A stretch of 36,273 nucleotides of DNA from a virus (taxonomy: Duplodnaviria; Caudoviricetes). Shown piece after piece: positions 8,508-19,791 of this stretch (within the stretch, counting starts at the first letter, position 1; every line of letters begins with the position of its first letter). The stretch covers positions 1 through 36,273 of the IMG/VR virus record IMGVR_UViG_3300030392_000144; one strand, 5' to 3'. The translations under genes and the position numbers were made by a program. The notes under the pieces were generated by a model. That model had not been told where the DNA came from, ran no database searches, and saw only the letters and a list, made by a program, of their open reading frames with translations.

Positions 8508-9347
8508 TTATTTTAGATTCCGTTGAATCCATAGAGTAGTTAAGTAATCTTTAGTTGCCTTATCAGAACCACCTTTATCCATTAATTTACCAAGTGGTGT
8601 TTGAGATGTTTGTTGCAATACTTCATGCACTTTTTTCTCATGGGCAGCTACTTTAGATAAGTTTTTTTGAAATGAGGGCCAATGTTTACTACCTTTTAAT
8701 AATTTTAAAGCTCCCCCGACTGGCATCATACCTTCAACAAATTCTCTCGCAGGGTCGTAAGGTTCTGGAGCAACTCTCATACTGTGCTGAGGCTGTTGCT
8801 CTAACTCATTCTCAAACATAAGTCTATCCATTTGGCTATGGGCTGTTTCATCTTGCATTGCTGGGTTCATGTATGCTAATAATGGTGTTCTTTCGATAGA
8901 ACCACCTTCTTGAAAATTACGTCCTTTCATAGATGGTCGTAATTCAATATATAAATCACGAAGTTCTTTCATTCTTCTCTTAGCTTTTGTCATTTCATCG
9001 TGAGTAGAATAACCCATAAATCCCTTACTATCAATAAACTTTTTTATTTCTTTAATTTCTTTTTTATATGAATCTACAAGTTTACTTTCAGCTATTCTTT
9101 TTTTTAAAACTCTATTAGGAATATATTTACCACCAATCATATTTCCTATAATTTTAGCTCCTTTTCCAATTGGCAAAGCATCTTCTGGATGGAGTCTTCT
9201 AGGTACTGACATACTATGTTGAGGTTGTTGAGCTAATCCAGATAAGGGGTCATTATCCATTTCATTTTCTAATAATAATCTATCCATTTGACTATGTGCT
9301 GTATTATCAGATACCGCTGATTGTAAGTAATCTATTATTCTTGGCAT
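8508..9347 (-). CDS. Two-module putative injected protein, last gene of the late operon
   Basis: Internal repeat TAHSQMDRL..ENE..QQPQHSM at aa 16-46 and 168-190, separated by FQEGG; TAATG-coupled to the giant gene. Confidence 0.75.
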   Translation of the reverse strand: MPRIIDYLQSAVSDNTAHSQMDRLLLENEMDNDPLSGLAQQPQHSMSVPRRLHPEDALPIGKGAKIIGNMIGGKYIPNRVLKKRIAESKLVDSYKKEIKEIKKFIDSKGFMGYSTHDEMTKAKRRMKELRDLYIELRPSMKGRNFQEGGSIERTPLLAYMNPAMQDETAHSQMDRLMFENELEQQPQHSMRVAPEPYDPAREFVEGMMPVGGALKLLKGSKHWPSFQKNLSKVAAHEKKVHEVLQQTSQTPLGKLMDKGGSDKATKDYLTTLWIQRNLK

Positions 9348-17605: not shown

Positions 17606-18445
17606 TTATTGAATTTCATATTGTCCATTTTCATCAGACCATACATAAAAATCACCATTAAAATATACTGTACCTTGATTAGTTGTTGGTAATGACGCAA
17701 CTGGTGTGAAGTCTGTACCGGGTAAATTCATTCCTTGTGAATAATCTTCACCGAGGTCTACACTTGTGTCTAATGATTCAGGAGTATAACCTCGAGTTCC
17801 TTGTTCACTTTCAAGTCGACCTAACCCTGCGGCTACACTAGCTGCCCAGTCTTCTCTTTCACCTCTAACTCCTTTAAATAAGGATGATTTAGCTGCCCCT
17901 TCTTTTTGTAAAAAGTCATCCATGATACTACCTCTAGATTGTTCCATAGATTTTTGTACTCCACCAGAACCAGCAAATCCTGCTTTTGCTTGATATTCAC
18001 TCGCCGCTTGACCAGCTCCTAATAAATTTTGTCGAGCACCTGTAGTAGCCCCTTGCATACTTCTTGCATAGTCTTCAAAAATTACACCTTCTCTCGCTGG
18101 GTCATATTTAAATTGTCTTTCAAATTTAGCTTTTTGTGGACTAGTTGGTTCTATGCCCAGTTTTTTATATATATCATCAAGAGTTTGAGTATTAGATACA
18201 TCTCCACCATAACTTAATGTACTACCACCAGACTGCATACCCATCATATCCCCAAGCATACCACCCATTTGAAAATTAGAACGCTGAGACATATCAAATC
18301 TTGGAGAGTCTTCAAAGTTTATTTCATCTAATTTTTCTTCACCTATGTCATCAACAGCGTTACGATTTAATACGTACTCTCCGGGTTCTAGTAATGCTAA
18401 TATACTATCTCCGGGCCCTCTACTATATTTAGAATACTCAGCCAT
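17606..18445 (-). CDS. Putative ejection protein with GPG-DS..L..GEYV domain
   Basis: GPGDSILALLEPGEYVLNRNAV resembles a motif of tape-measure and virion proteins; contains FQMGG and MQSGG. Confidence 0.6.
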   Translation of the reverse strand: MAEYSKYSRGPGDSILALLEPGEYVLNRNAVDDIGEEKLDEINFEDSPRFDMSQRSNFQMGGMLGDMMGMQSGGSTLSYGGDVSNTQTLDDIYKKLGIEPTSPQKAKFERQFKYDPAREGVIFEDYARSMQGATTGARQNLLGAGQAASEYQAKAGFAGSGGVQKSMEQSRGSIMDDFLQKEGAAKSSLFKGVRGEREDWAASVAAGLGRLESEQGTRGYTPESLDTSVDLGEDYSQGMNLPGTDFTPVASLPTTNQGTVYFNGDFYVWSDENGQYEIQ

Positions 18446-19791
18446 TATCTTCCCGGGCTCCTATTGTATTTTAAAAGACCACCTAACTGGTAAGCCATTG
18501 GTTGTTGTTGAACTGTACCACCCATATTATATGGTAAAGGTTTAGATACTCCCATCATACCACCCATTTGTCTACCTTGATATTGTTCAGGAAACATAGA
18601 CATAGCACTTTCATTTCCAGCACCCTGAAGATATTGTTGTATACCTTCTTTTGGAATACTTGAAAAAAATTCATCTCCTTGATATGTTCCTTCAGGAATT
18701 AATTTTTGCAATCCTCGTGGTAGTTCAGTTGCACTTAATTCTCCTAATGGTTCTCCTGTAAATGGATTCATCATAGGTTCTAATTGTTGTCCAAATGGAG
18801 TATTAGAAGGGTCTTGTTGTCTAAAAAAATCTTGTCCTTTTGAATAATCTTGCATAGATGATAATATGTCTTTTGATTGTCCAGTTAATCCTAAAAGACC
18901 TTGCATATTTACTTCATCCATTTCTCTAGAGCCTCTTAAATCTGCTCTTTCAGCGGCTTTACCCATAATTCTTTCTTTATTAAAATCAGCAGTACGAAAA
19001 GCCTGCATTAGTTCATTATATTTTGGACTGTCCAACATACCAAGTGGAGCGGCTCCCTGTTTACTTGCCGTTTCAAATACATCATCTCCCATTACTTGAG
19101 ATTGTAATGTATCTTCTAAAGATTGTGGGCCAAAAACTTCACCTCCTGATTGATAAGATGGTACATATCCACCTTTTTGGAAAGCATATCCACCTTTTTG
19201 AAATTGAGTTAATGGATTACCAGTTGATTGAAAATAATCATCAGCTCCTGCTATATCTGCAACTGGCATATCTTCACCAAATAATTTAGTATCAGTTGGA
19301 GGTCTTAAATTAATACCAGTTTTAGACATTAATAATTTACCAGCTTCAGATTTTAATTGGTCTCCAGCAACTCCAGCTAATCCAGCTTTTATTTGAGCTG
19401 CCCCAGCTCCTAAAGCTTGTCCTTGCATTTGTTTATCAAGACCAGATTCAGATTTTATTAAATCTTCATAAGCCCTAGTTCCTAATCCTGTACTACCCAT
19501 CCCTATTTCTGGCCCTGAACCAGATAACATTTTTGAACTACCTAATGCACTACCAAGTGTAGAAGCAATTGCTTTACCAACCATAACTCCTCCGGGCCCA
19601 AGTACAGGAGTAAGTAATGTTCCAGCAGCTAAACCAGCTCCTTTCCCCAAGATGTTACCCAAAAGACTTCTTTTAGATTGATATTTTTTAAGTTCTTTTT
19701 CTTTTCTTGCTAAATCTCTTTGTGCTATTCCCCTGTCTCTTTGTAGACCAGTTCCAAATGCAGCTTGTGAAAATCCCGGTACGTATCCCAT
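18445..19791 (-). CDS. Putative ejection/pilot protein with glycine-zipper membrane segment
   Basis: LLGNILGKGAGLAAGTLLTPVLGPGGVMVGKAIASTLGSALG; six Phi-(Q/N)-x-GG-like motifs. Confidence 0.6.
   Translation of the reverse strand: MGYVPGFSQAAFGTGLQRDRGIAQRDLARKEKELKKYQSKRSLLGNILGKGAGLAAGTLLTPVLGPGGVMVGKAIASTLGSALGSSKMLSGSGPEIGMGSTGLGTRAYEDLIKSESGLDKQMQGQALGAGAAQIKAGLAGVAGDQLKSEAGKLLMSKTGINLRPPTDTKLFGEDMPVADIAGADDYFQSTGNPLTQFQKGGYAFQKGGYVPSYQSGGEVFGPQSLEDTLQSQVMGDDVFETASKQGAAPLGMLDSPKYNELMQAFRTADFNKERIMGKAAERADLRGSREMDEVNMQGLLGLTGQSKDILSSMQDYSKGQDFFRQQDPSNTPFGQQLEPMMNPFTGEPLGELSATELPRGLQKLIPEGTYQGDEFFSSIPKEGIQQYLQGAGNESAMSMFPEQYQGRQMGGMMGVSKPLPYNMGGTVQQQPMAYQLGGLLKYNRSPGR
19164..19205. repeat. 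21-bp tandem duplication encoding FQKGGY twice
   Basis: CATATCCACCTTTTTG at 19164 and 19185. Confidence 0.85.

What the first reader, a model, noticed from the sequence alone, without database searches (positions are those of the whole stretch)
18410..18471. Terminally redundant gene junction 1: end of one ejection gene is repeated at the start of the next
Seen: ORF 19791-18445 ends YQLGGLL-KYNRSPG-R*. The TAATG-coupled ORF begins MAEYS-KYSRGPG-DSILALLEPGEYV. DNA is AAA TAC AAT AGG AGC CCG GGA versus AAA TAT AGT AGA GGG CCC GGA, 41 nt apart; three of the five differing codons are synonymous. Known: tape-measure and virion proteins carry a contiguous (F/Y)xxGG...GPG..DS..A.L..GE(F/Y)V motif. 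Joining the ORFs at the repeat rebuilds it. Inference: either translational bypass (matched GGA/GGA or AGA/AGA codons next to a stop, as in T4 gene 60), or a domain split by duplication and completed in trans.
Basis: partly seen in the sequence, partly recalled or inferred. Interest (0 to 1): 0.78.

Follow-up and report, generated by a model that had tools for sequence, protein, structure and literature searches.

The report
Split virion module, no ribosome hop
Two neighbouring phage genes each carry an overlapping piece of a small module that also occurs in tape-measure proteins; the repeat is kept as peptide, not as matched codons, so the genes are likely read separately and the two pieces likely meet again as proteins in the particle.

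Summary
The repeat is real: gene A (19791-18445) ends KYNRSPGR, gene B (18445-17606) starts MAEYSKYSRGPGD, 41 nt apart; 5 of 7 residues match (shuffle P=0.004; 0 of 152 control junctions reach 5/7). It is not a recoding signal. Across 23 distinct junctions from 46 related loci the last codon before the stop is matched in B's head in 9 (11.2 expected by permutation), 8 pair GGA with GGT, spacing varies from 32 to 44 nt in whole codons, B keeps its ATG, and there is no conserved hairpin or slippery site. No A-B fusion was found. The echo is the overlap of two pieces of a widespread module without a Pfam model (xxGG ... D..A.L.PGE[FY]V.N; 5,292 proteins; lambda gpH 731-790). A's tail, its best-conserved part, matches the module's N-flank; B carries the core. 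A sister lineage has the module contiguous in gene 1, or at the start of gene 2 with no echo, so the echo is dispensable. Best reading: a split module whose pieces likely co-assemble among ejection-type proteins (inferred, not shown). Bolder lead: the module marks or makes the unexplained lambda gpH cut.

The parts
18445..19791 (-). Gene A, 448 aa; likely first ejection-type protein; Gly-rich hydrophobic stretch at residues 54-72 and six xQxGG repeats
   Evidence: no Pfam or PHROG hit; 'ejection' is inferred from position after the tail genes
17606..18445 (-). Gene B, 279 aa; starts with the module core, then two xQxGG repeats and a helical domain
   Evidence: (phrog_3547 TMP, residues 8-52, E 2.9e-5)
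18448..18531 (-). Conserved tail of A (residues 421-448, YNMGG...YQLGGLLKYNRSPGR): the module's N-flank
   Evidence: 76% identity across 23 A homologues against 12-50% for the rest of A, many synonymous changes; scores above 299 other xxGG repeats against contiguous flanks
18451..18471 (-). Echo copy 1, KYNRSPG, in A
18410..18430 (-). Echo copy 2, KYSRGPG, in B
18443..18447 (-). TAATG stop/start overlap, the usual coupling in this genome (9 of 27 minus-strand junctions overlap by 1 nt)
18296..18409 (-). Module core in B, residues 13-50 (D.I.A.LEPGEYVLNRNAV...G...L...N...PRF); the only copy in the window
18224..18274 (-). B's own downstream repeats FQMGG (58-62) and MQSGG (70-74); relatives insert cassettes here
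19141..19203 (-). Three xQxGG repeats in A (residues 197, 204, 213)
18478..18573 (-). Three further repeats in A (residues 407, 421, 434)
18451..18457 (-). CCCGGGA, a formal XXXYYYZ heptamer in A's frame; not conserved, judged incidental
   Evidence: seen in 1 of 34 distinct junction sequences

Best explanation
A and B are two overlapping-stop/start genes that carry overlapping pieces of one widespread virion module, A its N-terminal xQxGG-KYxxxP strand and B its core with a second KYxxxP, and they are likely translated separately, with A's tail likely docking on B's core in trans when these predicted ejection proteins are assembled in the particle. Shown: the echo, its homology to the contiguous module, selection on A's tail as peptide, absence of conserved recoding signals, one core per gene cluster, and movement of the core between gene 1 and gene 2 in a sister lineage. 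Inferred: that A and B are ejection proteins, that the overlap arose by splitting or truncating module copies at the KY linker (the natural boundary), and that tail and core bind.
For: A's last repeat aligns without gaps to the contiguous flank (YQLGGLLKYNRSPG vs YQTGGMPKYSPYPG) and carries KY at GG+3/+4 in 8 of 8 variants against 2 of 299 other repeats. It is the best-conserved part of A (76% vs 12-50%) while codons vary freely. In 11 loci B lacks the KY head and A ends GGLIQ[YH]RKGY, a split without overlap. In long tape-measure proteins the core has an xxGG repeat upstream in 560 of 608 copies and on both sides in 502 (background 13% per 37-residue window), so a core at a protein's N-terminus lacks a flank that it normally has. 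xQxGG repeats are confined to genes 1 and 2 of the cluster (1.9-9.5 per 1000 aa against at most 0.14 in neighbours) and each of 95 podophage-type loci holds one core (loci were chosen for holding at least one and span at most 10 kb). Homologous cores occur as stand-alone proteins of about 70-90 aa, so the core can exist apart from a long host protein. B's ATG and a stop/start overlap are kept in all 46 echo loci and the spacing changes only in whole codons.
Against: The echo is dispensable: 17 sister-lineage loci and 3 others start the core with KYSxxPGD without an upstream echo, and two of these (L083, L086) nest among echo-bearing genomes in a quick tree. B has its own KY linker and downstream FQMGG, which could fill the site in cis. 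C-terminal xxGG repeats also end gene-2 proteins that have no core downstream. The comparison with contiguous flanks rests on only 2 in-register references and was made after seeing the match. A is not detectably homologous to the sister gene 1 outside the module (hhalign 1.6%), so no fused ancestor of A+B was found. Monomer models resolve only two helices (pLDDT 60 and 66). No virion proteomics exist for this phage in what I could search.
Confidence: 0.5

Rival explanations
1. The module is a processing unit: the core (invariant D, E, N) cuts, or recruits a protease to, neighbouring xxGG repeats, in cis in tape-measure proteins and in trans on A and B here; A's tail is a substrate-like strand.
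For: In lambda gpH the module spans 731-790, just after the estimated gpH*/gpHC cut at about 691-730, whose site and catalyst are unknown (PMC12617516 passages). Tape-measure proteins of up to 7,800 aa carry 3-9 copies that divide them into segments. 35 of 88 B homologues have 25-250 extra residues inserted after the core's repeats, and 13 and 7 of 120 end in S74 or Hint self-cleaving domains. Stand-alone cores exist.
Against: The core is only about 40 residues with no known catalytic fold (no Foldseek or VIA match, on a low-confidence model). The lambda cut is not mapped and may lie tens of residues upstream. Cutting near A's very C-terminus would release only 10-15 residues.
Confidence: 0.22
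2. A's tail is an independent tag that binds some other virion part (portal, scaffold, or other xQxGG repeats); the KYxRxP echo is a relic of module duplication and A and B do not complement each other.
For: All four combinations of tail and head occur; the echo was lost within the lineage; xxGG repeats end many cluster proteins regardless of a core. The crAss001 cargo protein gp45 has several xxGG repeats, sits after the tail stabilisation gene, and its portal-bound domain 425-552 (PMC10172136 passages) begins at one of them.
Against: A's last repeat is specifically like the module's N-flank, unlike 299 other repeats, and it is held under stronger constraint than A's other repeats. Homology with the crAss domain was tested and not found (hhalign at most 1.1%).
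Confidence: 0.22
3. T4 gene 60-type translational bypass from A's last codons (GGA or AGA) to a matched codon in B, giving an A-B fusion.
For: In the window both AGA/AGA (last codon) and GGA/GGA (penultimate) match. 16 of 23 junctions end A in Gly, and in 6 of them GGA-stop is matched by the GGA of B's PGD. The conserved tail could act as a nascent-peptide signal.
Against: Last codon matched in 9 of 23 junctions, 11.2 expected by permutation (P=0.97); 8 pair GGA with GGT, outside the G/A or U/C wobble pairs kept in all natural gene 60 cassettes (bioRxiv 2022.08.31.505936 sections 10 and 16). In register, GGA/GGA 2 of 22, K 15, Y 10, R 2, P 4, at or below codon-usage expectation, and 2 junctions have no match. 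No stable hairpin: z = +0.87, +0.51, -0.10 in the window; 1 of 4 relatives below -2. The gap is coding in both frames and holds B's start codon. Terminal Gly is as common in sister gene 1 (14 of 21) with no echo.
Confidence: 0.03
4. A -1 frameshift on C CCG GGA fuses A to B with both copies retained.
For: A formal XXXYYYZ heptamer lies inside the 5 open codons of B's frame upstream of its ATG.
Against: Present in 1 of 34 distinct junction sequences; no downstream structure; the fusion would keep the duplication rather than rebuild the motif.
Confidence: 0.02

Closest known systems
Gly-rich xxGG...GE[FY]V...xxGG segment of siphophage tape-measure proteins (lambda gpH 731-790, PDB 8iyk chain H; 8zdo gp16, two copies; PHROGs 3547, 37649, 5448 and others)
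   Same: Profile match (E 9e-5 and 1.6e-14; 1.3e-6 and 4.6e-17); B residues 8-52 hit phrog_3547 directly; lambda even has the KY linker (GGKYEPAG).
   Different: Here the module is divided between two genes of a likely short-tailed phage; neither A nor B has a tape-measure domain; no Pfam or NCBIfam model covers the module and the segment is unresolved in the Ur-lambda structure (PMC12617516).
T4 gene 60 translational bypassing
   Same: Two ORFs in different frames with a stop close to a GGA and a later GGA in the window.
   Different: No conserved matched codons, no take-off stem-loop, gap of variable length that codes in both frames and holds an ATG.
crAss001 cargo protein 1 (gp45, Pfam PF25725 crAss_CARG1)
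   Same: Follows the tail stabilisation gene, has a Gly-rich hydrophobic N-terminal segment, scattered xxGG repeats and an E.GE strand in its portal-bound domain; nearest named ESM cluster at a weak 0.77.
   Different: No significant profile similarity to the module, to A or to B (hhalign at most 1.1%); an analogy only.
GPSH..GG..E.EGGE variant of the module in viral contigs
   Same: Homologous to the module (hhalign 94-96%, reversed control at most 0.2%); includes small stand-alone ORFs.
   Different: Different linker; no Pfam hit of note; found with a motif that I recalled, not one that a tool supplied.

Membership tests
T4 gene 60-type bypassing | Matched or wobble-compatible take-off and landing codons conserved across relatives | tested here: not met
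   9 of 23 matched vs 11.2 by permutation; 8 GGA/GGT; in-register matches at or below chance
T4 gene 60-type bypassing | Stop (or hungry codon) directly after the take-off codon | tested here: inconclusive
   True for AGA-TAA in the window but the last codon differs among relatives (GGA 14, AGA 3, AGC 2, GCA, GGC, GGG, ATA 1 each)
T4 gene 60-type bypassing | Conserved take-off stem-loop | tested here: not met
   6 of 7 folded stretches no better than shuffles, structures differ; synonymous sites vary
T4 gene 60-type bypassing | Non-coding gap; contiguous orthologue without the gap | tested here: not met
   gap holds A's last codons and B's ATG in all 46 loci; no A-B fusion among 14 longer homologues (weak search)
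T4 gene 60-type bypassing | Fusion product made in vivo | not testable with these tools
   needs reporter or proteomics
Tape-measure xxGG/GE[FY]V module | Core D..A.L.PGE[FY]V.N..A...G...L..N | tested here: met
   B 13-50; (window hit E 2.5e-24 with a profile that includes B)
Tape-measure xxGG/GE[FY]V module | xxGG repeat upstream of the core in the same chain (560 of 608 copies) | tested here: not met
   the upstream repeat lies in gene A
Tape-measure xxGG/GE[FY]V module | xxGG repeat downstream of the core (545 of 608 copies) | tested here: met
   FQMGG at B 58-62
Tape-measure protein | Long helical protein with TMP domain (PF10145, PF06791, PF20155) | tested here: not met
   A and B are 448 and 279 aa with no Pfam hit
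crAss cargo protein 1 (PF25725) | Profile match to the portal-binding domain | tested here: not met
Podovirus ejection proteins | Cluster after the tail genes ending in a very large protein; hydrophobic segment in the first | tested here: met
   order 903 aa, 251, A, B, 445, 2294 aa; A 54-72 hydropathy 1.41; SU10 capsid protein
Podovirus ejection proteins | Present inside the virion and ejected | not testable with these tools
   no isolate or proteome at hand

The most novel reading that the evidence does not exclude
The xxGG/GE[FY]V module is an unrecognised, mobile processing-and-assembly unit of ejected phage proteins: a 40-residue core that acts on xxGG peptide tags, in cis in tape-measure proteins (up to nine copies dividing 7,800-residue chains, and at the unmapped lambda gpH*/gpHC cut) and in trans in these marine phages, where one core on B serves the tags on A. 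This junction would be the natural split form that lets the trans activity be tested.
Probability: 0.2. Interest if true: 0.8.

Novelty: new variant of a known kind. Interest (0 to 1): 0.4.

Why it matters
As a recoding site it does not matter: that reading fails. What remains is a natural split of a module found in over 5,000 protein clusters, with no Pfam or NCBIfam model, linking siphophage tape-measure proteins to likely ejection proteins of short-tailed marine phages. If tail and core bind in trans it shows how these proteins recognise each other; if the module directs cleavage it would answer how lambda gpH is cut, which a 2025 paper (PMC12617516) still lists as unknown, and that is testable at once in lambda.

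Tried and rejected
Co-fold of B(1-80) with A's last 50 residues: no answer, score 0.00, partner fold uncertain; counted neither for nor against. Monomer folds of the module: low confidence, two helices only; Foldseek and VIA searches on one model gave no match, which says little. Direct locus searches in viral contigs with B and A found 0 and 1 weak relatives; a motif pattern and an alignment were needed. Shine-Dalgarno by-product: AGGAG under A's Arg-Ser lies 12 nt before B's ATG here, but Arg is CGT/CGA in 21 of 30 junction sequences, so it cannot explain the echo. Chance: rejected. RNA signal in the tail: rejected by synonymous variation and folding. crAss gp45 as the fused A+B homologue, directly or through the GPSH variant: not supported. 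Sister gene 1 (F3) as fused homologue of A: no profile similarity outside the module. Literature searches for the motif found nothing relevant (one library only, most subscription papers absent). Earlier findings of this scan: none returned. The careful tree did not finish; the quick tree was used. Read mapping was not run.

Full report
Setting. The window is a whole 36,273-base virus record, 76% complete, with an SU10-type major capsid protein, an S74 tail fibre and an M15 endolysin. After the 903-aa and 251-aa genes come A (19791-18445, 448 aa), B (18445-17606, 279 aa), a 445-aa, a 2,294-aa and a 279-aa gene. None has a Pfam hit. That these are ejection proteins of a short-tailed phage is my inference from gene order and a Gly-rich hydrophobic stretch in A (54-72).

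Observation. The 5/7 match is beyond chance (P=0.0043 by shuffling; 0 of 152 control junctions at 5/7; only one of 27 in the window). One-base stop/start overlaps are routine here (9 of 27).

Relatives. A protein search with B gave 121 hits, 120 listed; a motif scan gave 47 viral loci and an alignment search 80 of 197 metagenome loci. Of 115 motif occurrences, 46 have both the A tail and the KY head, 11 have an A tail GGLIQ[YH]RKGY with B starting MADT (no overlap), 3 have the KY head after a gene with no such tail, 2 have neither, 17 have the KY head after a non-ATG start (probably TTG, inferred) in a sister lineage with no echo, 2 are cut by contig ends, and 34 have the core inside a protein (19 at the C-terminus of sister gene 1, 9 inside sister gene 2, 6 in other long proteins). 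The conserved echo is KYxRxP; after it A ends GR, MMG, MVG, MAG, IVG, MG, FG, FA, VS, MAR or SI.

Recoding tested. Gene 60 bypassing needs matched take-off and landing codons, a following stop and a take-off stem-loop (PMC7026636, passages), and natural cassettes keep identical or G/A, U/C wobble pairs (bioRxiv 2022.08.31.505936, abstract and sections 10 and 16). Among the echo loci (chosen by pattern for having both halves) in-register matches were K 15, Y 10, R 2, P 4 and G 2 of 22 distinct junctions, against per-site expectations of 0.78, 0.66, 0.55, 0.39 and 0.38; two junctions have none. Spacing is 32, 35, 38, 41 or 44 nt, always keeping the stop/start phase. Folding shows nothing conserved. 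A CCCGGGA heptamer is seen in 1 of 34 junction sequences. The junctions are related, so these counts are not independent, but no signal is shared by them. A search for longer B homologues gave 14 proteins, none with A-like sequence (the tool calls this weak evidence).

What the echo is. A profile of the region finds 5,292 cluster representatives among 1.84 billion. In 141 of the top hits there are 608 copies, mostly 3-9 per protein; 6 of 10 scanned carry PF10145. 560 copies have an xxGG repeat upstream, 545 downstream, 502 both; KY in the linker is rare overall (22). The broadened profile hits lambda gpH 731-790 and two sites in the 8zdo tape-measure protein, many TMP PHROGs and, by tblastn at E up to 1, 1,052 cultured phage records, but no Pfam or NCBIfam model. 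A's last repeat aligns without gaps with the contiguous flank of sister gene 1 and outscores essentially all 299 other repeats (KY in 8 of 8 against 2 of 299; only two in-register references). It is the most conserved part of A, with free synonymous change: selection acts on the peptide. B's head is equally conserved. KYSxxPGD is also where the core begins whenever it sits at an N-terminus in the sister lineage, so the overlap falls at the module's natural seam.

Natural experiment. In the sister lineage, which shares the upstream tail gene, the core lies at the end of gene 1, at the start of gene 2 or inside gene 2, and these states are intermixed on a quick tree of 43 tail-protein sequences (careful search unfinished, window's row on a long branch). 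There the split form has no echo. In the A-B lineage two echo-less genomes nest among echo-bearing ones. Each of 95 such loci has one core, and xQxGG repeats are concentrated in genes 1 and 2. Sister gene 1 is not detectably homologous to A outside the module, so I found contiguous modules but no fused A+B.

Mechanism. I commit to separate translation by stop/start coupling (about 95%) and, within that, to A's tail acting as a strand that docks on B's core during assembly of the ejection proteins (0.5 overall). The docking step is inferred from the flank rule in tape-measure proteins, the specific homology and conservation of A's tail, the overlap-free split in 11 loci and stand-alone cores. 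It is weakened by the dispensability of the echo and by B's own repeats. Two rivals stand at 0.22 each. First, processing: lambda gpH loses about 14 kDa from a glycine-rich region, the cut is estimated at 691-730, its site and catalyst are unknown and 690-817 is unresolved (PMC12617516, passages), while the module starts at 731; B homologues insert cassettes after the core (35 of 88) and often end in S74 (13 of 120) or Hint (7 of 120) domains. Second, an independent tag: crAss001 gp45 has scattered xxGG repeats and a portal-bound domain 425-552 (PMC10172136, passages), but every homology test with it failed. PMC10713586 (passages) reports processing of the DT57C tape-measure protein and no shared motif among the resolved C-terminal fragments, which lie beyond the module in lambda. 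I saw no supplements; they may hold cleavage or proteomics data.

Novelty. I found no paper naming the motif (one open-access library). The finding is a new, split arrangement of a known but uncharacterised segment, not a new recoding system. Interest 0.4; the bolder processing reading has probability 0.2 and would deserve 0.8.

Noticed in passing
window 8508-9347 (-): 279-aa gene after the 2,294-aa gene has an internal duplication (residues about 4-100 vs 155-242, shared TAHSQMDRL...QQPQHSM) with one FQEGG repeat at 145 between the copies.
   Followed up: partly
B homologues P0001-P0129: Modular protein: 35 of 88 carry 25-250 extra residues between the core and the helical domain, bounded by xQxGG repeats; C-termini swap among S74 (13 of 120), Hint (7) and AXH (2) domains.
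   Followed up: partly
P0135-P0275: Giant tape-measure-like proteins of 2,000-7,900 aa with 3-9 copies of the module; no other Pfam domain than PF10145 in the 10 scanned.
   Followed up: partly
PDB 8iyk chain H, 731-790: The module begins just after the estimated, unmapped cleavage site of lambda gpH.
   Followed up: partly
P0112 (190 aa, 916-base contig): B's head joined to A's tail in reverse order; recombination between repeats or an assembly chimera.
   Followed up: no
L188, L249 and ESM clusters of 67-80 aa: Stand-alone small proteins made of little more than the module.
   Followed up: partly
L130:16988-19516 (crAss001 gp45): Several xxGG repeats, one at the start of the portal-bound domain; resemblance to A/B architecture without detectable homology.
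   Followed up: yes
L013, L014, L039, L044, L047, L048 and 11 more: Sister-lineage gene 2 has no ATG before the core and appears to start at a Leu codon overlapping gene 1's end.
   Followed up: no
window 29545 junction: Weaker tail/head echo, TTPDDR* then MASNIKYPDDR, 4 residues; probably chance, not checked in relatives.
   Followed up: no
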